IMG/VR virus record: IMGVR_UViG_3300045988_177924
DNA from: a virus
Reading direction: 5' to 3' (one strand)
DNA: 64,000 bases
Part shown: positions 1,050 to 63,959 of the stretch, in pieces
Numbering within the stretch: position 1 is the stretch's first letter
Layout of the letters: every line of letters starts with the position of its first letter
The notes under the pieces: generated by a model
Database searches by the model: none
What the model saw: the letters and a program-made list of their open reading frames with translations, nothing else
What the model was told of the DNA's origin: nothing
Position numbers and translations under genes: made by a program

Positions 1050-1450
1050 AAAAACAGACTCAGCAACAGAGAGATTTTGACCAAATTATTGACAAATGGG
1101 ATGATGCAGAGGACGAGGTGTTGCGTTTGCAAACACTAAACATGCAGCTTCAACAAGATTACAACAGAGCGTGGGAAAGACTGAAATCTCAACGCCGAGA
1201 AATCGACGAGTTACAAAAAAAGCTGGAACAACACGAGCGGTTGGAACACGAGATCAAAGCACTGTTTGGAATCGAAATGCTTCAAGCTGTACAAGACTTT
1301 GCGGATAAGTTGAAAACACGACTCGACGCAAAAGCGCAACACTATGTTTGTAGGTACGATTGGAATGGGCACTCCGCTGTAGTGGATTGTGAAAATGAGG
1401 TCGACAAACTTTTGGAGGACTGTGCAAATGAAAAAACAAAAAATGATTAA
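1046..1450 (+). CDS. hypothetical coiled-coil protein
   Basis: ATGA stop/start overlap with the upstream ORF. The sequence is Q/E/L-rich. Confidence 0.65.
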   Translation: MKKQTQQQRDFDQIIDKWDDAEDEVLRLQTLNMQLQQDYNRAWERLKSQRREIDELQKKLEQHERLEHEIKALFGIEMLQAVQDFADKLKTRLDAKAQHYVCRYDWNGHSAVVDCENEVDKLLEDCANEKTKND

Positions 1451-2350: not shown

Positions 2351-2501
2351 GTTAAAAGTGCCTAATGATTGCAGAGATTGTGAGCATTTCGATTTCTATT
2401 TGGAAGTGTGCAATCTTTTCAATAATGATGTTTTCTACGATGAAGATAAAGATATTTATGAGCGTTGTAAAGAGTGCGAACAAGCGGAGGTGGAAGAATG
2501 A
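2331..2501 (+). CDS. small zinc-ribbon-like protein (56 aa, below the ORF-track cutoff)
   Basis: ATG 2331 follows GAGGTG. Contains CRDC ... CKEC pairs. Its TGA overlaps the next ATG (ATGA at 2498-2501). Confidence 0.5.
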   Translation: MPKIRVELKVPNDCRDCEHFDFYLEVCNLFNNDVFYDEDKDIYERCKECEQAEVEE

Positions 2502-2689
2502 AAAAGTTATTTACAAAATGCAAAGAACCCGAAGACTACAAAATATTACTTGTAGAAGACGGCAGCATTGACGTTGACAGCTTGGAACAATTTATCGACG
2601 AACACGACCTTAAAATCAAAATCGTTTTATACAGACAAGGCTCTGTGCCGCCTCGTTTTCTCAATCAATCGGAGGAGGAACAAAAATGA
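2498..2689 (+). CDS. hypothetical protein (63 aa)
   Basis: ATG 2498 is preceded by GGAGGTGG. I prefer it over the ORF-track start at 2474. Confidence 0.55.
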   Translation: MKKLFTKCKEPEDYKILLVEDGSIDVDSLEQFIDEHDLKIKIVLYRQGSVPPRFLNQSEEEQK

Positions 2690-19226: not shown

Positions 19227-21584
19227 ATGGACGCAAATTACGCATTGGCCGCATCGTCGGCTTTTGAAGATAAAGTTAGATTAAAAGTACGAGTTGAAAG
19301 GATTATTTATCCCAAAAATGGTCAAACTTCCGGTAGTTGGACCATTGCTGCTTTTCGTATTGAGGAAGTGCTGGAGGGAGAGGTTCCAGAATGCTTTCAG
19401 TGGTCTTTACGTTTTACTGCCAAGGGCTCGATGCCTGCGTTAAATGCACGTGACACTTACACAATGGTTGCTCATCTTGTCGAAGACGCCAAATACGGGT
19501 TGCAATACGAAGTCGATTTGATGTGTCTTGATTACGACTTGACCGATAAAGATGACCAACTTAAATTTTTCTCTTTCTTTTTAACTCCAACACAAACTGC
19601 GGCGTTATATGAGAATTGCGATAATCCACTGGTGCTGTTACAAAACCACGACACGAAAGCCTTAATGAAAATAAAAGGTATTGGCCCGGTGACAGCGCAA
19701 CGTATGATTAACAAGTACGAGGACAGTAAAGACTTAAGTCTCGCATTTGTTCGGTTTTATGATCTAGGGTTAACGAAGGGTGCGATTGAGAAATTGGTGC
19801 ACTTTTATGGTTCTCCTGAGGCGGCGGTCGAAGTTATCGAAAAGAATCCGTATTTGTTAATTATTCAAGTGCCTGGTTACGGATGGGCTAAGGCAGACGC
19901 TATAGCGATGTCACAAGGACTTGCTCACGACTCTGATGAACGTATGGGCGCCTATCTAGTACATTATCTCAGAGAACAAGCAGAGATGAACGGCAACTCT
20001 TGGGTAAGCGTCGAAGACTTGTGCGTGGTTATTGACCAGGTGTGCGACCCACACAACGATGAGCGAATTTATGAACTTATTCGTCGTAATATTAAAAATC
20101 ACGTTTTGTATTATGATAAAGAAACTGAACGTGTTGGGTTAATGGAATACCGTGAACTTGAACAACAAATCGCCAATGAGATACTTCGTATTCAACGCGG
20201 CGCAGCTCATATTGAGATTAACCCAGAACGAGCCGAAACAATAATTCGCAGCGTGGAACTAGAACAAGGCTTCGAATATACTGAGGAACAGCGAACCGCG
20301 ATTTGGAACACTTTGAACAATCAGTTCAGTATTTTGACGGGTGGGGCCGGATGCGGCAAGACTTCGGCCGTAAACGGCATCGCTCACGTCCTCGAAGCCC
20401 ATAATTTCCGCGTTGCTCAAGTGTCCTTATCAGGTCGTGCTGCCTCTAAATTGACAGAAATAACTCATATTGAAGGAAAGACCATTCACCGGTTACTTAA
20501 GTACGATCCAGAGTCAGGTAAATTTTTGCACAATAAAGAGAACCCCTTACCATATGACATCATAATCGGTGACGAAGTATCAATGTGGGGTGGAGAAATT
20601 ACCCTTTCTTTGTTACAAGCAATCCCCACCGGCGCCAAAGTGTTATTTATTGGTGATACCAAACAGCTTGAAGCAATTGGGTTAGCCAGCGTTCTCACCG
20701 ACACAATTAAATCACACACGATGCCAACTGTCCAGTTAACAAAAATACAACGACAACAGGCAGATAGCGGCATTATCACACAATCACTTAAGGTTGCATG
20801 TGGAGAACAAATTGTGGGGCCGAAAACCAGTGGTGTTGAATATCGTGGAGTTCGTAAAGATTTTAAACTCGTTACTTATATTGATAGTGCTTTGACACAA
20901 TCAAAAATTATTGACGAGTTTAAGGAACTTTATATTAACCAACACGTTCCAGCAAATGACATCCAGGTGTTAGTTCCGATGCGTAGTCGAGGCGAGGCCA
21001 GCTGTAGAGCGTTAAACCTAGCCATTCAAGAGATTGTCAACGGTACGCCCAGTGTGGATGAAATAACAGTACCATATACCGACGGGAACTATAAATACAG
21101 TTATACGTACCGTCCTAATGATCGAATCATCATTATGAAAAACAACTACAAGACCATCAATATAGAAGGCAACAAAGAACCTATCTATAATGGGAATGTA
21201 GGTTATATTAAACAAATTGGACCTGATTTTATGATTGTCAATTTGACAGAGCAAGGTGATATTGTTTTGGGAGCAGAGGATTATAACAACCTTTCTTTAG
21301 GATATGCTATCACCGTGCATAAAAAACAGGGCGACTCATCCCCGTATGTAATCGGAGCTATCGACAGCTCGTCATACGCTCTAATGTCCAAAGAATTGCT
21401 GTACACAATGATTACTCGAGCTCGTAAATATTGCGTTTTGATTGGACAGAAGAAAATTTTACAACAAGCAGTCAAAATTAGTCGTGTGAAAACAAAACAA
21501 ACCTGGCTGTGCGAGCTTTTACAAGAAGCGACAAAACCAAAGGAGTATTTAGATGACCAAAAAGTGTCAATTACCCAGCTCTAA
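19227..21584 (+). CDS. recD: RecD/RecD2-like SF1 helicase
   Basis: HhH segment MKIKGIGPVTAQRM, Walker A GGAGCGKTS, Walker B IIGDEVSM, plus FIGDTKQL and ITVHKKQGDS. Confidence 0.85.
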   Translation: MDANYALAASSAFEDKVRLKVRVERIIYPKNGQTSGSWTIAAFRIEEVLEGEVPECFQWSLRFTAKGSMPALNARDTYTMVAHLVEDAKYGLQYEVDLMCLDYDLTDKDDQLKFFSFFLTPTQTAALYENCDNPLVLLQNHDTKALMKIKGIGPVTAQRMINKYEDSKDLSLAFVRFYDLGLTKGAIEKLVHFYGSPEAAVEVIEKNPYLLIIQVPGYGWAKADAIAMSQGLAHDSDERMGAYLVHYLREQAEMNGNSWVSVEDLCVVIDQVCDPHNDERIYELIRRNIKNHVLYYDKETERVGLMEYRELEQQIANEILRIQRGAAHIEINPERAETIIRSVELEQGFEYTEEQRTAIWNTLNNQFSILTGGAGCGKTSAVNGIAHVLEAHNFRVAQVSLSGRAASKLTEITHIEGKTIHRLLKYDPESGKFLHNKENPLPYDIIIGDEVSMWGGEITLSLLQAIPTGAKVLFIGDTKQLEAIGLASVLTDTIKSHTMPTVQLTKIQRQQADSGIITQSLKVACGEQIVGPKTSGVEYRGVRKDFKLVTYIDSALTQSKIIDEFKELYINQHVPANDIQVLVPMRSRGEASCRALNLAIQEIVNGTPSVDEITVPYTDGNYKYSYTYRPNDRIIIMKNNYKTINIEGNKEPIYNGNVGYIKQIGPDFMIVNLTEQGDIVLGAEDYNNLSLGYAITVHKKQGDSSPYVIGAIDSSSYALMSKELLYTMITRARKYCVLIGQKKILQQAVKISRVKTKQTWLCELLQEATKPKEYLDDQKVSITQL

Positions 21585-21589
21585 TAGAG

Positions 21590-21797
21590 CGCGAGTTTAC
21601 TCACTAGTTGATCAGACTAAGCGTTAAGCTACGTTATCAAAGAATATATAGGCACCGTAGGATGTACTCTCCAGTCTTACGCTCTGCGGTATGTGATTAA
21701 ACAGTTCTGATGGGTAGGAACAGTGTTGCATACATTAAACCTTTGAATAACATTGTCGTGGAGTAACCACTCTAACATATAGGAGGCTATAAAAGCA
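21590..21797 (+). ncRNA. candidate omega RNA (HEARO-type) of IscB
   Basis: Established IscB loci encode a ~200-nt omega RNA immediately 5' of, and running into, the iscB start. This ~210-nt interval has no ORF. The call is positional, and I did not verify a fold. Confidence 0.4.
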
Positions 21798-22928
21798 ATG
21801 GTATATGTATTAAACAAACAAGGCAAACCATTAATGCCTTGCAAAGAAGCAAAGGCAAGAAAATTGCTAAAACAACACAAAGCAAGAACAGTAAAATACG
21901 AACCGTTTACAATTCAATTACTATTTGATTGTGAAAATCAGACACAGGACATCGCTCTTGGGGTTGATGCCGGAAGTAAGTACATCGGTGTTTCTGCAAC
22001 AACGGAAAAACAAGTGCTGTATGAAGCTGAAGTTGAGTTAAGAAACGATATCGTAGAGAAATTGTCGTCTCGTCGCGAAGCTCGTAGAACTCGTAGAAGT
22101 AGACTAAGATATCGTCCAGCAAGATTTAACAATCGTGTCCATTCAAAACACAAGGGCTGGCTAGCTCCCAGCATTGAGCAAAAGATAAATGCGCATATTC
22201 AAGTTATAAGACACTTATATGAGATTTTGCCGATAACTAAACTTATTGTCGAAACCGCTCAATTCGATATCCAGAAGATAAACAATCCCGAAATATCGGG
22301 AGAAGAATATCAACAGGGTAATCAATTAGGTTTCTGGAATGTAAGAGAATATGTATTGTTCCGCGATAACCACGAATGTCAATGTTGCCACGGTAAATCA
22401 AAAGATAATGTATTAAATGTACACCATCTTGAAAGTCGCAAAACCGGTGGCAATGCGCCAAATAATTTAATCACTTTATGTGAAACCTGTCATAAAGCTT
22501 ATCATAAAGGCGAAGTTGAATTAAAGCTCAAACGTGGTAAAAATTATCGAGATGCTGCATTTATGGGTATCATGAGGAAAACCTTGTTGCTAAGATTAAA
22601 CCAAACATATCCGAATGTTCATGAAACCTTTGGATATGTTACGAAAAACATAAGAATCGAGAATGGTCTGCCTAAAGAACACCATGTCGATGCGCGGTGT
22701 ATCAGTGGCAATCCTTTGGCGAAACCCTTGGAATATTATCTTTATCAAAAATGTGTCAGAAGGCAAAATCGGCAGATTTATAAAAATAATTTGTGTAAAA
22801 ATGGGCGAAAGATAAGCAATCAACTAATTGGCGACATTTTTGGATTTAAATTATTTGATACTGTGAAATATCAAAATAAACAATATTTTGTTTTTGGTAG
22901 GCGCAAATCGGGATATTTTAAGATCTAA
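21798..22928 (+). CDS. iscB: IscB RNA-guided nuclease (PLMP, split RuvC, bridge helix, HNH)
   Basis: GKPLMPC (PLMP motif); GVDAGSKYIG (RuvC-I); RREARRTRRSRLRYRPARFNNR (bridge helix); WLAPSIEQK..IVETAQFD (RuvC-II); HECQCCHG..NVHHLESRKTGG..NLITLCETCH (HNH); EHHVDARC (RuvC-III); GFKLFDTV..GRRKSGYF (C-terminal domain). Confidence 0.85.
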   Translation: MVYVLNKQGKPLMPCKEAKARKLLKQHKARTVKYEPFTIQLLFDCENQTQDIALGVDAGSKYIGVSATTEKQVLYEAEVELRNDIVEKLSSRREARRTRRSRLRYRPARFNNRVHSKHKGWLAPSIEQKINAHIQVIRHLYEILPITKLIVETAQFDIQKINNPEISGEEYQQGNQLGFWNVREYVLFRDNHECQCCHGKSKDNVLNVHHLESRKTGGNAPNNLITLCETCHKAYHKGEVELKLKRGKNYRDAAFMGIMRKTLLLRLNQTYPNVHETFGYVTKNIRIENGLPKEHHVDARCISGNPLAKPLEYYLYQKCVRRQNRQIYKNNLCKNGRKISNQLIGDIFGFKLFDTVKYQNKQYFVFGRRKSGYFKI

Positions 22929-27377: not shown

Positions 27378-27452
27378 AGGTTCTTAGTTTAATGGTAAAA
27401 TATCGGTCTCCAAAACCGTAAGATCTGAGTTCGAATCTTAGAGGGCCTGCCA
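27378..27452 (+). tRNA. tRNA-Trp (anticodon CCA)
   Basis: Hand-folded cloverleaf. Acceptor AGGTTCT/AGGGCCT (two G-U pairs), anticodon loop CTCCAAA, T-arm CTGAG-TTCGAAT-CTTAG, encoded CCA end. Confidence 0.8.
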
Positions 27453-27473
27453 ATAGAATAATATTTTTGCTAA

Positions 27474-27558
27474 TGCCGAGTGGCGAAATTGGTAGACGCA
27501 CCAGATTTTGATTCTGGCGACGAAAGTCTTGGGGGTTCAAGTCCCTCCTCGGTAGCCA
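27474..27558 (+). tRNA. class II (long variable arm) tRNA with anticodon UUG; isotype ambiguous
   Basis: Acceptor TGCCGAG/CTCGGTA, Leu-like D-arm TGGCGAAATTGGTAGACGC, anticodon stem CCAGA/TCTGG with loop TTTTGAT, 13-nt variable arm (GAC-GAAA-GTC), T-arm GGGGG-TTCAAGT-CCCTC, discriminator G, encoded CCA end. Confidence 0.7.
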
Positions 27559-27578
27559 CTATAACTATGGAGGTTTAT

Positions 27579-27740
27579 ATGATTGACGATAAGCCTGTAA
27601 TTGTTACAGACCCTAAGAAAATCAAAGAGATTAAAGAAGCACTACAATCAAGTATGGTGTATACCGAAGATATTGCACCAGCCATCCCATCTCCGCTGCC
27701 TGAGAACGCGGCGGAAATGTGGTTTGGTAAAAAGAAATAA
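27579..27740 (+). CDS. hypothetical protein (53 aa) between tRNA genes
   Basis: ATG 27579 lies 5 nt after GGAGG. The longer ORF-track version (27480) runs through the tRNA. Confidence 0.45.
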   Translation: MIDDKPVIVTDPKKIKEIKEALQSSMVYTEDIAPAIPSPLPENAAEMWFGKKK

Positions 27741-27741
27741 T

Positions 27742-27825
27742 GTGACCGTGGCGGAATTGGCAGACGCGCCAGCCTTAGGAGCTGGTATCACAGATGTGTG
27801 AGTTCGAGTCTCACTGGTCGCACCA
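27742..27825 (+). tRNA. tRNA-Leu (anticodon UAG)
   Basis: Acceptor GTGACCG/TGGTCGC, D-arm TGGCGGAATTGGCAGACGC, anticodon loop CTTAGGA, long variable arm, T-arm GTGAG-TTCGAGT-CTCAC, discriminator A73, encoded CCA end. Confidence 0.85.
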
Positions 27826-27944
27826 CGGCGACACGACAAATGGTCGCCCGACTGACAAAAATCGTATGTGCAGTGATAGAGCATAGGTTACTAACTAATT
27901 CGCGGTAAGTTAATGTAACAAGGTACTCAAAGTACAAGAGTACG

Positions 27945-27981
27945 GTAGTAGTTTGGAAACGGTTCTACTACAAAATTTTTT
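27945..27981 (+). terminator. possible intrinsic terminator
   Basis: GTAGTAG (27945-27951) pairs with CTACTAC (27965-27971), followed by AAAATTTTTT. Confidence 0.4.
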
Positions 27982-28048
27982 AACGGGGCTCTCCAGAAAA
28001 TGCTCCCAAAATCCGGGATGTCAGAAGTATGGGCGGCCCCATTTTCTT

Positions 28049-28124
28049 CGGGGTGTAGCGCAGCTGGGAGCGCGTATGGCCTGGGACCATAAGGTCGCAC
28101 GTTCGAATCGTGTCACCCCGACCA
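28049..28124 (+). tRNA. tRNA-Pro (anticodon UGG)
   Basis: Acceptor CGGGGTG/CACCCCG, D-arm GCGC-AGCTGGGA-GCGC, anticodon stem TATGG/CCATA with loop CCTGGGA (position 33 is C), T-arm GCACG-TTCGAAT-CGTGT, discriminator A73, encoded CCA end. Confidence 0.8.
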
Positions 28125-59749: not shown

Positions 59750-60343
59750 TTAAAACAACCAAATGTTTCTATGTTTGTTGATGTGTTTGCGGCAGCTCTC
59801 GTCGCCGGTGAAGAGACATTCCTCTTCATTGAGATAATACCATTTGCCTGTTCCCTCTTCTTGTTCGAAGTCAGGATTGATATTCCCTTCTTTGTACATT
59901 GTCACCGTCGTACGGACGGGTTCGAACGTTTGAGGATTTAACATCCAATACCGTTTTGTATAGGATTTGATTTCTTGTCCAGGGACAAGAGTTTGTAATA
60001 AGGCAAATTTTTCTACCTTGTTGCCTTGATATAATTTGACGAGGTCTTCTTCCTCGTAAACTGACACCGCTTTGGTAGGCAGTTCTTCGATTTCGATCTC
60101 ATAGTCATTTCTGCGCATTGACCACCCTTTGCGCAATGCCAGCCATTTGGCTTCTTCCATTGCTGCAGTAGTGTTCCTGCGCGGCAAGGAGTGGAATTCT
60201 TCCACGACGTTTTGAAACACTGTTTCGGTGATGATGTTTTCGTCCCATTCTTCTTGGTTCATCGGATGGGTTGGGGCAACTGGAACTTGTTTTTCTACAT
60301 TGTAGAACGTAGCTTTGACAGTTGCGATAATGTAATTTTTCAT
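59750..60343 (-). CDS. hypothetical protein (197 aa)
   Basis: AGGAG SD upstream, preceded by leader element A. Confidence 0.7.
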   Translation of the reverse strand: MKNYIIATVKATFYNVEKQVPVAPTHPMNQEEWDENIITETVFQNVVEEFHSLPRRNTTAAMEEAKWLALRKGWSMRRNDYEIEIEELPTKAVSVYEEEDLVKLYQGNKVEKFALLQTLVPGQEIKSYTKRYWMLNPQTFEPVRTTVTMYKEGNINPDFEQEEGTGKWYYLNEEECLFTGDESCRKHINKHRNIWLF

Positions 60344-60490
60344 AATGATTCTCCTTTCTATGCCATTAGTCTTCGATTAGCAAGATTTTTATTTTACGAA
60401 GATGATGCCATTATGAACACCATGAGCGCCACCCTCCTAAGAGGGCAACGGACTTGCACCGTTCACGCTTTCGCGCGGGCCTTGCGGTGA
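60344..60490 (-). ncRNA. structured leader element A (family of three)
   Basis: Starts directly after the TAA of the upstream gene. UCACCGCAAGGCCCG, CGC-GAAA-GCG hairpin, GUGA, AACGG-UGCAAGU-CCGUU, CCCUC-UUAG-GAGGG hairpin, GGCGCUCAUGGUG. No SD-led ORF. Confidence 0.5.
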
Positions 60491-60982
60491 TTAACTCTCG
60501 TAAGATTCGAGAGCGTCCTCCAAATAATCAGTTCTTGCTCTTTCGAGCAAGAGTGATTTGGTAAGGGCATTCTTTTTGCCCTTGGTTGCTTTGAGCTCAT
60601 CTTCGGTGAGCGATGCGACAACTGTCGCTTGCGGCGTGAGTAAGACACCTTTCTTATAATCAATATAAGTTTCGGTGTCGATTTCGCTCTCGGCAGAGGT
60701 TACAATCTCATCAACGTTGTAGCCTTTAGTTAGAAGCATGAAACAAGAGGTCATCATGCTTTTTGCCTTATCGCTGTCGCCGGCGCAAACATCGATGCAA
60801 ATCTGCGCGAAGTGCACAGCAGCTTGCTTGTCGGCCTCGCCGTTGTAGCAGAATTTTTCTTTGCTGCCATCGGGAAACTCGATTGTTTCGATGCCGAGGT
60901 TGATATTCCCATCTGCTTTCATTGCGTCGAGGGCGTTGATGATGTTGGGGGTTGATACAGTTTGATTGATTTTAATTGACAT
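60491..60982 (-). CDS. hypothetical protein
   Basis: AGGAGG SD upstream. 163 aa. Confidence 0.7.
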   Translation of the reverse strand: MSIKINQTVSTPNIINALDAMKADGNINLGIETIEFPDGSKEKFCYNGEADKQAAVHFAQICIDVCAGDSDKAKSMMTSCFMLLTKGYNVDEIVTSAESEIDTETYIDYKKGVLLTPQATVVASLTEDELKATKGKKNALTKSLLLERARTDYLEDALESYES

Positions 60983-61015
60983 ATATATGTCCTCCTATAT
61001 AATAATATTTTTTAA

Positions 61016-61411
61016 TTAAATGTTTACCACTCTTTCGCAAGCGGTTTTGATTCCGATAGGCATTGACCTATCATAGAATCGATCAGTGTGATCAGCCATT
61101 CGGGTGATCAACGTATAAATTTGATCAAGTTTATTGCAGAAAGGACTACAATAAACTTCAGTCCAGTTATAGGTTCCTCCTGAGAGTTTGCTTCCCGCCG
61201 GCAGCCCACTCGGGGTTTTCTTGGCTATGATGCAAAGATACATATAGCCTTCGGGGGAAAATTGAGCTAAGGAGATTTTCACCTTTTGTTGCTTAAAAGT
61301 CAATAAGACCTGTGAGTTTTCCACACCACTTAACGGGTGTTGTTTGACGACGACTTTGATGTTGTCGTCTTTGTGTTGGTTGATATAGTTTGTTAGGTCG
61401 TGGATAAGCAT
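61016..61411 (-). CDS. hypothetical protein
   Basis: GGAGG SD upstream. 131 aa. Confidence 0.65.
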   Translation of the reverse strand: MLIHDLTNYINQHKDDNIKVVVKQHPLSGVENSQVLLTFKQQKVKISLAQFSPEGYMYLCIIAKKTPSGLPAGSKLSGGTYNWTEVYCSPFCNKLDQIYTLITRMADHTDRFYDRSMPIGIKTACERVVNI

Positions 61412-61426
61412 ATCGCTTCACCTCCT

Positions 61427-61555
61427 TTATGTATTGGCTTGCGAGCAGGTTCCCCACTCGCAAGAGCGAGTTGTGCAGTCTTTGCACGGATCGTCTTCTA
61501 TAGTTGCTTCATATTCCTTGAGGTATTCCTCGATGGTGATTTGTTGGTATGGCAT
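61427..61555 (-). CDS. hypothetical Cys-containing miniprotein (42 aa)
   Basis: GGAGG lies 7 nt upstream of the ATG. Sequence MPYQQITIEEYLKEYEATIEDDPCKDCTTRSCEWGTCSQANT. Its stop is followed by the SD of the next gene. Confidence 0.45.
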   Translation of the reverse strand: MPYQQITIEEYLKEYEATIEDDPCKDCTTRSCEWGTCSQANT

Positions 61556-61567
61556 AATAACCTCCAA

Positions 61568-61729
61568 TTAAAAAGTTTTTGTTTTTATATTTAATACCTC
61601 TTCTAAGGTATATAAATATCTTTCGTGGGTAAAAACTACAACGTTAAAGAGTTTCGCCACCGCATAAGCGCGGTGGCGATTGGTGTAGTCTTTTTGCTTA
61701 TTATTGATAAAAAGAGTATAAATTATCAT
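61568..61729 (-). CDS. possible miniprotein (53 aa)
   Basis: ATG follows AAGGAGGG with a short 3-4 nt spacing. The ORF exactly fills the gap, and its TAA overlaps the next SD. The ORF contains a strong hairpin (CGCCACCGC..GCGGTGGCG). Confidence 0.35.
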   Translation of the reverse strand: MIIYTLFINNKQKDYTNRHRAYAVAKLFNVVVFTHERYLYTLEEVLNIKTKTF

Positions 61730-61738
61730 AAACCCTCC

Positions 61739-61924
61739 TTAATCGATATTATCAACAGTGACTTGATATGTCACGTTGATTTTCAGTTGATGTATCAACG
61801 ACATTGAAAGATCATCACCGAGTTCAAATACATTGATTTCCCTCGGTGTTGCCATCGTCATTGTCGCGACGATGACGCCGTTGTTGTTATAGAAAATAAA
61901 ATTATAATGTTTTACATTTTTCAT
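61739..61924 (-). CDS. hypothetical protein
   Basis: ATGA overlap with the upstream gene. GAGGAGG SD upstream. 61 aa. Confidence 0.55.
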   Translation of the reverse strand: MKNVKHYNFIFYNNNGVIVATMTMATPREINVFELGDDLSMSLIHQLKINVTYQVTVDNID

Positions 61925-62352
61925 TTTGTTATTCCTCCTCTCTCTTTTTTGTAGGCGTCTAACTTTTGTTCGGCGCGTTGGACATCGATGATGGGGTCGC
62001 CAAAATCGTAGTAGGATTCAACAATCCCTTCTTTGCCGATTTCGTACTCATCGATTTCATAACCATATTCGTCAATTGCAATATCAAACCCAAGTGGGGA
62101 TATATAATATTCCTCAAATGAACTTGCTAAATCACTTAGATTTAGATAATATTTGTTTCTCTCTTCTTCAGAAAGAGTGGAACAAAATACTTGTTTCATT
62201 TTCTTGAAAAGATATAAATCTTCCTCAAGAAGATTACGATTGTGTTTGATCCACTCAGTTGCTTGCTCTTTGTCATCAAAGATACAATAAGCAAAGTTTT
62301 GGTTATTTTCACCGTCAAAATAATCAATTTTCGAAATATAAACTTTTTTCAT
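61921..62352 (-). CDS. hypothetical protein (143 aa)
   Basis: ATG 62352 follows AAGGAGG. Confidence 0.65.
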   Translation of the reverse strand: MKKVYISKIDYFDGENNQNFAYCIFDDKEQATEWIKHNRNLLEEDLYLFKKMKQVFCSTLSEEERNKYYLNLSDLASSFEEYYISPLGFDIAIDEYGYEIDEYEIGKEGIVESYYDFGDPIIDVQRAEQKLDAYKKERGGITK

Positions 62353-62356
62353 TTTC

Positions 62357-62560
62357 TTAGTCCTCCTTTTCTTTAAGAACGTTGAACGTCCCAACGATAT
62401 TATAATCGTTGATCTTGTTGATTAAGCTGTCCGCCGCCCCCAGGTTGCCCAGAAGCAGTTGTACTTCTGCTGCATCCAGCAAAAGTTGGTCGTAACGGGA
62501 GAGTTGCCTCTCTTCTGCAACTTGATCGAGTTCATCGATCCATGATTTAATATTTTTCAT
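62357..62560 (-). CDS. hypothetical protein (67 aa)
   Basis: ATG 62560 follows AAAGGAG. The upstream in-frame extension in the ORF track lies within leader B and has no SD. Confidence 0.55.
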   Translation of the reverse strand: MKNIKSWIDELDQVAEERQLSRYDQLLLDAAEVQLLLGNLGAADSLINKINDYNIVGTFNVLKEKED

Positions 62561-62706
62561 AACGGTTTCTCCTTTCCCTGCCATGGGACCCCTAGCAATA
62601 ATAAAGTTTTTCGGGGACGGTGTCGTTATGCCCACCATAAGCGCCGCGTATTTCTACGCATCGGACTTGCACCGATCACCTCCGAGGGGGCGGGCCTTGC
62701 GGTGAT
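62561..62706 (-). ncRNA. structured leader element B (family of three)
   Basis: Starts 1 nt after the upstream TAA. AUCACCGCAAGGCCCG, CCU-CGG-AGG hairpin, GUGA, AUCGG-UGCAAGU-CCGAU, GCGUA-GAAA-UACGC hairpin, GGCGCUUAUGGUG ... CUAGGGGUCCCAUGGCAGGGAAAGGAGAAAC. Confidence 0.5.
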
Positions 62707-62949
62707 TTATTTTAGTATTTCGCCGAAATTGTCGGTGACAAGTTGTTTGGCGACATCCGTCAAGTGGTGGATACACTTGCTGTAAGTCTCCGTTTTGCCT
62801 TCGACTTTAGCCCTGTATTCGGGCGTTATGGCGAAGGAAATTTTGGTGGCATTGGACATTTCTTTATCGAGTTGGGTGTTTACCCATATGACAAAATCGT
62901 TGACAAAGCCAACGATTGCCGCGATTTGGTCGGCGGTATAATTTTTCAT
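62707..62949 (-). CDS. hypothetical protein (80 aa)
   Basis: ATG 62949 follows AAGGAGG. Confidence 0.6.
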   Translation of the reverse strand: MKNYTADQIAAIVGFVNDFVIWVNTQLDKEMSNATKISFAITPEYRAKVEGKTETYSKCIHHLTDVAKQLVTDNFGEILK

Positions 62950-62971
62950 AATAGCCTCCTTTTGCTTGGGG

Positions 62972-63391
62972 TTAGATGTTGCCCCAAACATCTAATTTGT
63001 TATAGTGTGCCTGGCAGGTTCCCCTGCGAGAATGCCCTCCACTATAATAAAACATGCCGTCTCCGGCATATATTTTGCGGCGGAGAAAGTCTTCCTCCAT
63101 TTTGATATTGTGATCTATAACCACAATTTTATTAATTTTAACATTGTTAAAATTAATATAGTAATACACTGGGACCAGTGCAACCTGGTCTCCTTTTTGG
63201 AGAGATGCCAAGGTTTTGGCGTTCTCCTTTTGAAGTTTTTTAATCTTTTCCCCGAGAGGGAAGATTTTGTATTGGACCGGACGAGAGGTCCAATTTTTTA
63301 ACGTGGCTTCTGCTACTTTGCGGACGTTGCCGCGTGTGGCGTTGACGACGATGTCGCCCATTTGTGTTTTAATGATAAATTGTTTTTTCAT
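62972..63391 (-). CDS. hypothetical protein
   Basis: AAAGGAG SD upstream. 139 aa. Preceded by leader element C. Confidence 0.65.
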   Translation of the reverse strand: MKKQFIIKTQMGDIVVNATRGNVRKVAEATLKNWTSRPVQYKIFPLGEKIKKLQKENAKTLASLQKGDQVALVPVYYYINFNNVKINKIVVIDHNIKMEEDFLRRKIYAGDGMFYYSGGHSRRGTCQAHYNKLDVWGNI

Positions 63392-63577
63392 AGTGTTTCT
63401 CCTTTCCTGGCTAGGGAACCCGATTCGCCATTGTTTAGTTTTGTTTTACGGGTTGCCGAACTATGAACGGCAATGCTGATGGTTTCGGCTCATGCCGTCA
63501 TCAGGCCACGGACTTTTACCGTGACGACCATCTGTCCCGAGCAAGGGTTTAAGCTTACTCGGGACATTGTGTGATTT
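63392..63577 (-). ncRNA. structured leader element C (divergent member of the family)
   Basis: Starts after an SD-ATG-TAA mini-ORF. AAAAUCACACAAUG, 9-bp hairpin UGUCCCGAG..CUCGGGACA, CACGG-UAAAAGU-CCGUG ... GGUUCCCUAGCCAGGAAAGGAGAAAC. Confidence 0.45.
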
Positions 63578-63761
63578 TTACATATTTTACCTCCCCACCC
63601 CCGCTTGGGTGTATTGTATTTCACGGCTCCTTAATAAGAGAATTGTTCCCACTCACTCGCTTGTGAGCAGTTGAATAAACGTTCCTCTTCCCCTTCGGAG
63701 GGGTAACCTATCTCTCTTAAAGCGGTAAGAGAGCAATTGTGGGACTATATCCCACGACAAC

Positions 63762-63959
63762 TTATAGATTAAAAATTTCTATAAGTTTTTGGCAATTCTC
63801 GCGAGGATTGCGTTTGTCCCATTGCATTGGGACACCTTTATTTTTGTGGTTTTTTATTTCACCACAAAACGTGTGAAAAGATATTTGTATCTTTTCTTGT
63901 GTATTATAAAAATACACTACGCGGGATTTGTTCCCGTTTTGATCAGGCATTTCTACCAC
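63762..63959 (-). CDS. hypothetical protein (65 aa)
   Basis: ORF with a weak SD. Start uncertain. Confidence 0.4.
   Translation of the reverse strand: MVEMPDQNGNKSRVVYFYNTQEKIQISFHTFCGEIKNHKNKGVPMQWDKRNPRENCQKLIEIFNL

What the first reader, a model, noticed from the sequence alone, without database searches (positions are those of the whole stretch)
60344..63577. Three paralogous structured RNA leaders with compensatory stem changes, at the 5' end of the minus-strand gene array
Read on the minus strand, three ORF-free intervals share one architecture: A (60490 to 60344), B (62706 to 62561) and C (63577 to 63392).
- 5' segment: AAUCAC(C)GCAAGGCCCG.
- A hairpin whose sequence differs in every copy: A has CGC-GAAA-GCG, B has CCU-CGG-AGG, C has a 9-bp UGUCCCGAG/CUCGGGACA.
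- GUGA.
- A T-loop-like hairpin with a conserved 7-nt loop U(G/A)(C/A)AAGU. Its 5-bp stem covaries: A AACGG/CCGUU, B AUCGG/CCGAU, C CACGG/CCGUG.
- A second hairpin that is fully swapped between A (CCCUC-UUAG-GAGGG) and B (GCGUA-GAAA-UACGC).
- Then GGCGCUYAUGGUG.
B and C also share CUAGGG...CCAGG(G)AAAGGAGAAAC running into the SD of the downstream gene. Conserved loops combined with swapped-but-still-pairing stems point to a functional RNA fold rather than decayed coding sequence. I cannot assign the motif to a riboswitch or leader family I know; the GGUGCAAGUCC core only superficially recalls cobalamin riboswitches and tRNA T-arms. All three copies sit in the first ~3.5 kb visible of a ~19-kb co-directional array. 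That placement would fit a cis-acting antitermination element (put-like), a ligand- or ribosome-sensing leader, or a processing site.
Basis: seen in the sequence. Interest (0 to 1): 0.75.

Follow-up and report, generated by a model that had tools for sequence, protein, structure and literature searches.

The report
Three self-cleaving ribozymes between phage genes
The three "unknown structured leaders" are known self-cleaving RNAs, two twister-sister ribozymes and one hammerhead ribozyme, sitting between small phage genes where they most likely cut a long messenger RNA into pieces; this is an ordinary kind of element, although each is joined to a related leader that appears to pair with the next gene's start codon.

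Summary
Copies A (60492..60413, minus strand) and B (62707..62628) are twister-sister self-cleaving ribozymes: Rfam RF02681 scores 71.0 and 54.5 bits against a gathering score of 34. All catalytic-core nucleotides are present, and the predicted cuts are C60424|A60423 and U62639|A62638. Copy C is not a twister-sister (no match even at E<=10). It is a type III hammerhead (63532..63478, cut C63526|G63525) with one extra nucleotide between A9 and G10.1. Rfam's hammerhead models miss it, but it belongs to a phage family of 26 distinct sequences whose stems I and III covary strongly. What the three intervals do share lies 3' of the ribozymes: a paralogous ~75-nt 5' UTR in which a CAUA(A)NN motif pairs with the downstream start codon and covaries between copies. 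Among 115 distinct phage twister-sisters, most sit just after a stop codon and about 42 nt before the next start codon. The best reading is that the ribozymes process a polycistronic phage transcript between genes. This is a new member of a known kind, and interest is modest.

The parts
60413..60492 (-). Copy A: twister-sister ribozyme of the four-way-junction type. P1 is CACC 60489-60486 paired with GGUG 60421-60418. The 5' loop strand is GCAAGG, SL4 is GUGCAAGUC, and the 3' loop strand is GCUCAU.
   Evidence: Rfam RF02681, 71.0 bits, E 3.3e-14, full model 1-81. The core residues match those described by Zheng 2017.
60423..60424 (-). Predicted scissile bond of A: C60424 | A60423 (GCUC^AUGG).
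   Evidence: Inferred by mapping onto the C62-A63 cleavage site of the crystal-structure construct (PMC5660989). Not tested experimentally.
60339..60417 (-). Leader A. The anti-start strand UUCAUAAUG (60417-60409) pairs with CAUUAUGAA (60347-60339), which includes the start codon at 60343-60341. The inner helix is UCUUCG 60402-60397 with CGAAGA 60375-60370. The SD GGAG is at 60354-60351.
   Evidence: RNAalifold consensus, pair counts, the window-wide scan, and the MFE and centroid folds.
62628..62707 (-). Copy B: twister-sister ribozyme. P1 is CACC 62704-62701 paired with GGUG 62636-62633.
   Evidence: Rfam RF02681, 54.5 bits, E 1.7e-9.
62638..62639 (-). Predicted scissile bond of B: U62639 | A62638 (GCUU^AUGG).
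   Evidence: Inferred by mapping as for A. C62U retains cleavage activity in vitro (PMC5660989).
62558..62630 (-). Leader B. The anti-start strand CAUAACG (62630-62624) pairs with CGUUAUG (62564-62558; start codon 62560-62558). The SD GGAG is at 62572-62569.
   Evidence: The single-sequence MFE fold does not recover this helix.
63478..63532 (-). Copy C: type III hammerhead ribozyme. Stem III is GAUGGU 63532-63527 with ACCAUC 63483-63478, and C17 is 63526. Stem I is GUCACGG 63525-63519 with CCGUGGC 63511-63505, and loop 1 is UAAAAGU. The core CUGAUGA is 63504-63498, followed by the extra C63497. Stem II is GGC-AUGA-GCC 63496-63487, and GAA is 63486-63484.
   Evidence: Manual parse of the sequence. 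Own covariance model R1 scores 83.1 bits as the only hit in the window (this copy was one of the ten sequences the model was built from). Family covariation. Rfam gives only 11.5 bits, a partial Hammerhead_II match.
63525..63526 (-). Predicted scissile bond of C: C63526 | G63525 (GUC^G).
   Evidence: Hammerhead rule of cleavage 3' of H17. Inferred, not tested.
63533..63566 (-). A 13-bp hairpin directly abutting hammerhead stem III, with loop CUUAAACC.
   Evidence: MFE fold. Similar hairpins with ..UUAAAC.. loops precede about 10 other family members. Role unknown.
63387..63473 (-). Leader C. A local hairpin (UUGCCG, loop UUCAUAGUU, CGGCAA; 63473-63453) carries the loop motif UUCAUAGU (63467-63460), which pairs with ACUAUGAA (63394-63387; start codon 63391-63389). 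The inner helix is ACCCG 63453-63449 with CGGGU 63422-63418. The SD GGAG is at 63402-63399.
   Evidence: The orthologous leader in L199 keeps this module without any ribozyme.
63578..63594 (-). SD GGAGG (63594-63590), AUG (63583-63581) and UAA (63580-63578): a possible start-stop mini-ORF. It places a stop codon just 5' of copy C, as real genes do for A and B.
   Evidence: Read from the sequence only. Not tested.

Best explanation
The three intervals carry self-cleaving ribozymes of two known classes, embedded in a co-directional array of small phage genes. A and B are twister-sister ribozymes that start 1-3 nt after the stop codon of the upstream gene and cut near their own 3' end (C60424|A60423 and U62639|A62638). 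The upstream mRNA piece would therefore keep the folded ribozyme and a 2',3'-cyclic phosphate at its 3' end. The downstream piece would begin with 5'-OH AUGGUG.. about 80 nt before the next start codon. C is a type III hammerhead that cuts near its own 5' end (C63526|G63525). It would remove a long structured upstream leader and leave stems I and II as the 5' cap of the downstream mRNA. The sequences show the class identity, an intact catalytic core and the intercistronic placement. Three things are inferred: that the ribozymes cleave in vivo, that the purpose is to segment a polycistronic transcript into pieces with separately set stability or translation, and that the shared downstream leader tunes initiation or protects the new 5' end. 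That leader has an outer helix pairing the AUG, an inner helix, and a small hairpin before an exposed SD.
For: Rfam twister-sister hits well above the gathering score for A and B. The core residues match those shown to matter in the crystal and mutagenesis study, and the U at N-1 in B is tolerated. C has a complete hammerhead core, a GUC triplet and three helices, and it is the only R1 hit in the window. The family shows 97.3% paired cells, 11 of 16 pairs with double changes, and 0 of 500 shuffles reaching the observed covariation score. Loops 1 and 2 fit the loop-loop motif of natural hammerheads. An extra nucleotide after A9 is a documented natural variation. Orthologous twister-sisters sit at the same two gene junctions in a related 130-kb phage. 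Among 115 distinct phage twister-sisters, 98 lie within 25 nt of the end of an ORF and 111 are followed by an SD and start codon at a median of 42 nt. Arrays of up to 7 copies occur in other phage contigs. Published precedent exists for ribozymes processing polycistronic RNAs, and for a hammerhead at the 5' end of a phage early transcript. For the leader.
Against: There is no experimental cleavage data for these sequences. In the viroid trans-cleaving context, a C at the inserted position was reported as detrimental, so copy C might be slow. C can also form a competing helix, CUGAUG:CAUCAG, which the MFE fold prefers. Rfam's hammerhead models do not reach threshold on C. Evidence for the leader helix rests on only three paralogue types in one phage clade. 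The helices are A/U-rich and weak, the fold energies of A and B are not better than shuffles, and the MFE fold of B does not contain the helix. No promoter was identified upstream of C.
Confidence: 0.8

Rival explanations
1. Cleavage-gated translation. The ribozyme and the start-codon-pairing leader work as one device, so that self-cleavage, or the new 5'-OH end it creates, changes the leader fold and switches translation of the downstream gene on or off.
For: In this window all three ribozyme-bearing leaders, and none of the other 53 minus-strand starts, have a perfect helix of at least 7 nt across the AUG. The helix covaries between copies. In A the anti-start strand follows the P1 3' strand without a gap. 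In eukaryotic RNA viruses, ribozyme cleavage has been reported as essential for translation initiation.
Against: The orthologous leader in L199 keeps the AUG helix with no ribozyme, so the module can work alone. I found no alternative pairing that links the freed 5' tail to the helix. Most phage twister-sisters have short unstructured A/C-rich spacers instead. The helix is weak, and the MFE fold of B does not contain it.
Confidence: 0.15
2. The ribozymes are passengers of mobile, recombining intergenic cassettes. They persist because they are harmless and bring no benefit to the phage.
For: The same leader module is found behind a twister-sister, behind a hammerhead, or behind no ribozyme at all. 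Ribozyme-leader combinations are shuffled among related phages. The 226-nt non-coding stretch upstream of C is about 99% identical to the L199 region upstream of HH#2, while a neighbouring protein is 64% identical, which suggests recent exchange.
Against: The catalytic cores are intact in every copy, with compensatory stem changes, which indicates purifying selection. Placement between a stop codon and the next SD is highly regular across 115 distinct copies. A and B are kept at the same junctions in a diverged phage.
Confidence: 0.12
3. Copy C is a decayed twister-sister paralogue (a pseudo-ribozyme), and its resemblance to a hammerhead is fortuitous.
For: C shares 12 of 17 positions in the 5' segment with A and B, plus a near-identical hairpin, ACGGU..AAGUCCGU.
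Against: No twister-sister match appears even at E<=10. The G5 equivalent is A, a change that abolishes activity. No P1 or P2 pairing can form. By contrast, every hammerhead core position is present, and the same architecture recurs in 26 distinct sequences with covarying stems. The 5' similarity is not kept in the sister phage.
Confidence: 0.04
4. One reading: a new cis-regulatory leader family, either put-like antitermination or a ligand- or ribosome-sensing riboswitch.
For: The elements lie in 5' UTRs and fold stably.
Against: A and B are confident members of a ribozyme class with solved structures. No riboswitch or leader family matches. No intrinsic terminator follows any of the elements on the minus strand.
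Confidence: 0.03

Closest known systems
Twister-sister self-cleaving ribozyme (Rfam RF02681), found by comparative genomics near other ribozymes and phage genes; structures in Zheng et al. 2017 (PMC5660989) and PDB 5T5A
   Same: A and B have P1, the internal loop (GCAAG / GCUNAU), P2, a four-way junction with P3, P4 and P5, and the SL4 loop GUGCAAGUC. They give full-length model matches at 71 and 54.5 bits. Their intercistronic phage context matches that of 115 other distinct copies.
   Different: P1 is CACC/GGUG where most phage copies have ACCC/GGGU. B has U at the N-1 position. The spacer to the next start codon is about 80 nt and structured, where the usual spacer is about 42 nt, A/C-rich and unstructured.
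Type III hammerhead ribozyme, including phage and bacterial intergenic hammerheads and tandem arrangements (Perreault et al. 2011, PMC3088659)
   Same: C has the full core (CUGAUGA, GAA, A15.1-U16.1, C17), three helices, and open ends at stem III. Its heptaloop 1 (5' U, 3' U) and loop 2 ending in A match the conserved loop-loop motif (PMC2632901). It lies in the 5' UTR at the head of a phage gene array, like the HF1/HF2 halovirus hammerhead.
   Different: There is one extra nucleotide (C63497) between A9 and G10.1, and stem II has only 3 bp. Rfam hammerhead models score it at 11.5 bits and miss all 15 related loci tested. A 13-bp hairpin abuts stem III.
CChMVd (+) hammerhead and Penelope-like-element hammerheads, which carry an extra residue between positions 9 and 10.1 (PMC3705267, PMC4209133)
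   Same: They have the same position of the inserted nucleotide. In the phage family U is the commonest insert, in line with the reported rate increase for U.
   Different: These are viroid or retroelement contexts in eukaryotes. The window copy carries C, which was reported as detrimental in the viroid trans-cleaving format.
glmS ribozyme in a 5' UTR (a Gram-positive mRNA destabilised after cleavage)
   Same: It is a self-cleaving RNA in a 5' UTR whose cut creates a 5'-OH downstream mRNA that is then handled by cellular RNases.
   Different: glmS needs a metabolite cofactor and is tied to one gene. Nothing here suggests a ligand, and the elements precede unrelated ORFan genes.

Membership tests
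Twister-sister ribozyme (RF02681) | Covariance-model score at or above the curated gathering score (34 bits) over the full model | tested here: met
   A scores 71.0 bits and B 54.5 bits, both over model positions 1-81. C gives no hit even at E<=10 on 701-nt and 86-nt sub-windows, so C is not a member.
Twister-sister ribozyme (RF02681) | Internal loop between P1 and P2 with conserved G5 C6 (A7) A8 G9 on the 5' strand and G59 C60 U61 N62^A63 U64 on the 3' strand | tested here: met
   A has GCAAGG and GCUCAU; B has GCAAGG and GCUUAU. C62U retains activity. C has ACAAUG, and the G5A change abolishes cleavage.
Twister-sister ribozyme (RF02681) | SL4 loop G29 U30 ... A34 G35 U36 C37, which makes the long-range contacts | tested here: met
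   GUGCAAGUC in A and B.
Twister-sister ribozyme (RF02681) | Helices P1-P5 maintained by compensatory changes | tested here: met
   Between A and B, P3, P4 and P5 differ on both strands and still pair. Nine clade copies keep the same pattern.
Twister-sister ribozyme (RF02681) | Mg2+-dependent site-specific self-cleavage | not testable with these tools
   Needs in vitro transcription and cleavage assays.
Hammerhead ribozyme (type III) | Conserved core C3 U4 G5 A6 N7 G8 A9 ... G12 A13 A14, the A15.1-U16.1 pair, and H17 not G | tested here: met
   CUGAUGA 63504-63498, GAA 63486-63484, A63483-U63527, C63526.
Hammerhead ribozyme (type III) | Three helices around the core, supported by covariation | tested here: met
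   Stems I and III: 100% paired with 9 double-change pairs in 10 sequences; 97.3% paired with 11 double-change pairs in 26 distinct sequences, and 0 of 500 shuffles reaching the observed score. Stem II was fixed by the search pattern, so it carries no information. The alignment was fitted to the model, and my parser required at least 3 bp in each of stems I and III.
Hammerhead ribozyme (type III) | A9 directly followed by the G10.1-C11.1 pair | tested here: not met
   One extra nucleotide (C63497; U, C or A in relatives) lies between A9 and G10.1. This is a documented natural deviation, so it does not exclude membership, but it may lower activity.
Hammerhead ribozyme (type III) | Loop 1 / loop 2 tertiary motif (5' U and extrahelical 3' pyrimidine in loop 1, 3' A in loop 2) | tested here: met
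   Loop 1 is UAAAAGU and loop 2 is AUGA. Compared by sequence only with Dufour et al..
Hammerhead ribozyme (type III) | Rfam hammerhead covariance models at or above the gathering score | tested here: not met
   The best result is a partial Hammerhead_II match at 11.5 bits against a gathering score of 37. There were no hammerhead hits at the gathering score in 25 loci that carry relatives.
   No such Rfam match at E<=1 over the window. No minus-strand terminator-like site lies within the leaders.

The most novel reading that the evidence does not exclude
The ribozymes and the paralogous start-codon-pairing leaders form one expression device. Self-cleavage creates a defined 5'-OH end a few nucleotides from a helix that holds the AUG, and this sets whether and when the downstream phage gene is translated or its mRNA survives. 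Because a twister-sister, a hammerhead, or (in a sister phage) a different structured element can serve the same leader, the required activity would be the cut itself and not the identity of the RNA. That would give a direct handle on the long-open question of what self-cleaving ribozymes do in bacteria and phages.
Probability: 0.15. Interest if true: 0.7.

Novelty: new member of a known kind. Interest (0 to 1): 0.33.

Why it matters
The finding dissolves into known biology: two twister-sister ribozymes and one hammerhead in phage intergenic regions, an arrangement described since 2011-2015. It still has modest value in three respects.

1. It is a compact natural case in which two ribozyme classes occupy equivalent positions in front of paralogous leaders. 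That argues the cut itself is the selected function.

2. It exposes a phage hammerhead sub-family, with an inserted nucleotide after A9, that current Rfam models miss at their thresholds.

3. The start-codon-pairing leader offers a concrete, testable link between ribozyme cleavage and expression of the downstream gene. Reviews still describe the biological role of bacterial and phage ribozymes as largely unknown.

Tried and rejected
- Megablast and blastn of the region against 50,697 GenBank phage records found no match, so the phage itself stays unidentified.
- PHROGs and Pfam scans of the flanking small proteins found nothing except a PcfJ-like domain in the 679-aa protein. Gene function therefore gives no clue.
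- Permissive Rfam scans of C gave only noise and a sub-threshold partial hammerhead match.
- A simple CUGANGA..GAAA pattern in the window was not enriched over shuffles (8 matches against 5.2 expected). Only the C site has hammerhead geometry.
- A MAFFT alignment of hammerheads with different stem lengths was out of register, so I replaced it with a same-length subset and a model-based alignment.
- I looked for tRNA genes behind T-arm-like motifs in related leaders and found none.
- A search for more examples of the twister-sister plus structured leader returned only the same phage clade.
- A search for the conserved region upstream of C found only one other contig, so no covariation test was possible.
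- A sigma-70 consensus scan found no convincing promoter upstream of C.
- I could not retrieve the original Weinberg 2015 paper. One 2026 preprint on ribozyme "body plans" held nothing useful.

Full report
**Observation.** On the minus strand, the three intervals lie between called ORFs. C shares only part of this: a loosely similar 5' segment (12 of 17 positions), the hairpin CACGG-UAAAAGU-CCGUG, and the region next to the Shine-Dalgarno sequence.

**Identity of A and B.** A whole-window Rfam scan at the curated thresholds places A (60492..60413) and B (62707..62628) in the twister-sister self-cleaving ribozyme family, RF02681. The scores are 71.0 and 54.5 bits against a gathering score of 34, with E-values of 3.3e-14 and 1.7e-9, and both matches cover the full 81-position model.
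- The "T-loop-like" loop GUGCAAGUC is SL4.
- GCAAGG and GCUYAU are the two strands of the catalytic internal loop.
- Mapping onto the crystal-structure numbering (G5 C6 A7 A8 G9; G59 C60 U61 C62^A63 U64; PMC5660989) puts the scissile bonds at C60424|A60423 and U62639|A62638.
- The U at N-1 in B is compatible with activity, since C62U cleaves well in vitro.

**Identity of C.** C gives no twister-sister match even at E<=10 on small sub-windows. It has A where G5 is required, and G5A abolishes cleavage. It cannot form P1 or P2.

Read on its own terms, C is a complete type III hammerhead. In 5' to 3' order (63532..63478) it consists of:
- GAUGGU, the 5' strand of stem III;
- C17, followed by the cleavage site;
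- GUCACGG-UAAAAGU-CCGUGGC, stem I;
- CUGAUGA, the core;
- an extra C;
- GGC-AUGA-GCC, stem II;
- GAA;
- ACCAUC, the 3' strand of stem III.

Rfam's hammerhead models give only a partial 11.5-bit match, so I tested the assignment by comparison.
- The pattern CUGAUGA-N-GGC-N3-6-GCCGAAAC gave 80 matches in IMG/VR contigs.
- A simple parser found type III geometry in about 60 of them, always with C at position 17, and with U (the commonest), C or A as the inserted nucleotide.
- On ten same-length sequences, all 160 pair cells are standard pairs and 9 of 16 pairs show changes on both sides. Controls with slid partners give 25-42% pairing.
- A covariance model built from these ten sequences (R1) finds one site in the window, the C copy, at 83.1 bits. 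The window copy was one of the ten, so it matches by construction.
- The model also finds 66 sites in the fetched loci. The 26 distinct sequences show 97.3% pairing, 11 pairs with double changes, and 0 of 500 shuffles reaching the observed covariation score.

There are three caveats. Stem II was fixed by the search pattern. My parser required at least 3 bp in each of stems I and III. The alignment was fitted to the model.

The published record covers the two unusual features. The inserted nucleotide between A9 and G10.1 is a documented natural variation, seen in the CChMVd (+) hammerhead and in Penelope-like-element hammerheads. In the viroid trans-cleaving format, U raised the rate while C and G were detrimental. 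Loop 1 (a heptaloop with a 5' U and a 3' U) and loop 2 (ending in A) fit the loop-loop motif described for most natural hammerheads.

So the hairpin that made C look like A and B is hammerhead stem-loop I. Its likeness to twister-sister SL4 is a resemblance between two docking loops, not evidence of one architecture. One relative, L142, even carries UGCAAGU.

**What the three intervals do share.** The region 3' of each ribozyme is homologous in all three. RNAalifold was run on 12 leaders: A-type, B-type and C-type from this and related phages, including an orthologous leader that has no ribozyme. Without any hint it returned three helices:
- an outer helix between a CAUA(A)NN motif and the start-codon region;
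- an inner helix;
- a small hairpin just 5' of the SD.

The outer helix differs compensatorily between copies:
- A: UUCAUAAUG (60417-60409) with CAUUAUGAA (60347-60339);
- B: CAUAACG (62630-62624) with CGUUAUG (62564-62558);
- C: UUCAUAGU (63467-63460) with ACUAUGAA (63394-63387).

Pair counts give 92.9% paired against 35-45% in slid controls. The structure was derived from the same alignment, which inflates this comparison. In a scan of all SD-preceded starts in the window, these three are the only minus-strand genes out of 56 with a perfect helix of at least 7 nt across the AUG within 20-120 nt upstream. Single-sequence folding recovers the helix in A and C but not in B, and the fold energies of A and B are not better than shuffles. 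I therefore regard the helix as probable but not established, and its function as open.

**Context.** The window is phage-like, with:
- a plus-strand replication module (DnaB-like helicase, PolIII alpha, RecD2-like helicase);
- four tRNA genes;
- a HEARO RNA next to an RRXRR/HNH (IscB-type) protein;
- a minus-strand array of small ORFan genes.

No GenBank phage matches. Close relatives are 89-135-kb IMG/VR contigs from one sample.
- Contig 171839 (L199) carries twister-sisters at the same two gene junctions as A and B. It also has two copies of the C-type hammerhead further upstream.
- Another relative also carries a pistol ribozyme.

More widely, the twister-sister core pattern occurs in at least 100 viral contig stretches, with arrays of up to seven copies in under 5 kb. 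Among 115 distinct copies with enough flanking sequence:
- 98 have an open frame of at least 40 codons ending within 25 nt upstream (median gap 8 nt);
- 111 are followed by an SD and start codon, at a median of 42 nt from the cut.

A and B fit this rule, except that their spacer is about 80 nt and structured.

**Mechanism.** Two things are shown: class membership with intact cores, and strictly intercistronic placement. It is inferred that the RNAs cut the polycistronic transcript.
- For A and B, the upstream piece would end in the folded ribozyme with a 2',3'-cyclic phosphate. The downstream piece would start with 5'-OH AUGGUG.. just before the leader helix.
- For C, the cut would remove the long upstream leader and leave stems I and II at the new 5' end.

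This agrees with published proposals and precedents:
- tandem hammerheads that process ~2-kb polycistronic RNAs in vitro;
- a halovirus hammerhead whose cleavage site coincides with the mapped 5' end of an early polycistronic transcript;
- the review statement that ribozymes may process polycistronic transcripts to give different stabilities or translation efficiencies, with function otherwise unresolved.

**Rivals.**
- A coupled "cleavage gates translation" device is attractive. It is weakened because the L199 orthologue keeps the AUG helix without a ribozyme and because I found no alternative pairing.
- A neutral mobile-cassette view is supported by module shuffling and by a ~99%-identical non-coding block shared with L199. 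It is opposed by intact cores, compensatory changes and regular placement.
- C as a decayed twister-sister, and a novel riboswitch or antitermination leader, are both contradicted by the data above.

**Verdict.** These are new members of known ribozyme classes in a known kind of context. The one feature that may be new is the shared start-codon-pairing leader.

Noticed in passing
window 21566-22928 (+): A HEARO RNA (RF02033, 120 bits) lies immediately upstream of a 376-aa RRXRR + HNH protein. This is an IscB-type RNA-guided nuclease locus inside the phage replication module, just after a RecD2-like helicase gene.
   Followed up: partly
window 27378-28124 (+): A cluster of four tRNA genes: Trp-CCA, Gln-TTG, Leu-TAG and Pro-TGG.
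   Followed up: no
window 63584-63809 (-): A 226-nt non-coding stretch upstream of copy C carries five or six hairpins (fold z-score -3.8). It is about 99% identical to L199 3321-3560, although a neighbouring protein is only 64% identical. Only that one IMG/VR contig carries it, and it has no Rfam match. It could be a promoter plus structured 5' leader, an unknown RNA, or a recently exchanged block.
   Followed up: partly
window 63578-63594 (-): GGAGG, then 6 nt, then AUG-UAA: a possible start-stop mini-ORF ending 12 nt before the hairpin that precedes the hammerhead. It mirrors the stop-codon-then-ribozyme arrangement of A and B.
   Followed up: no
window 63476-63504 (-): In copy C and all its close relatives, the 3' strand of stem III plus AG (CAUCAG) can instead pair with the core CUGAUG. 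The MFE folds prefer this inactive conformer. It could act as a switch or as a post-cleavage lock.
   Followed up: no
window 63533-63566 (-); also L141, L145, L151, L156, L163, L174, L187: Many hammerheads of this variant family are directly preceded by a hairpin whose loop contains (U)UAAAC. The partner or role of this loop is unknown.
   Followed up: no
L064 (~70 nt just 3' of the hammerhead at 1242-1296, minus strand) and L199 5835-5915: In related phages, a conserved element with an acceptor/T-arm-like minihelix (GGGCUC-AAGAGG-UUCGACU-CCUUAA-GAGUCC) sits in leaders at positions equivalent to the ribozymes. ARAGORN calls no tRNA there. It might be an RNase P-type processing signal.
   Followed up: partly
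15 loci: L131, L132, L133, L138, L141, L142, L145, L157, L166, L171, L172, L174, L181, L186, L198: Rfam 15 reports nothing at gathering thresholds in 15 phage loci that each carry a covariation-supported hammerhead with an inserted nucleotide after A9. The current hammerhead models therefore under-detect this sub-family.
   Followed up: yes
L103 1787-1853 (+); L129, L131 and relatives, just upstream of their hammerheads: A pistol ribozyme (64 bits) lies about 430 nt upstream of a C-type hammerhead in a sister phage. Other family members are preceded by GCCGGGUAAAAGUCUG, which recalls the 3' part of twister ribozymes; I did not verify this.
   Followed up: no
L215 ~2447-2545 (+): A twister-sister orthologue of copy A has a P1 mismatch (CCCC versus GGUG) and U30 changed to C in SL4. 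It may be a decaying copy.
   Followed up: no
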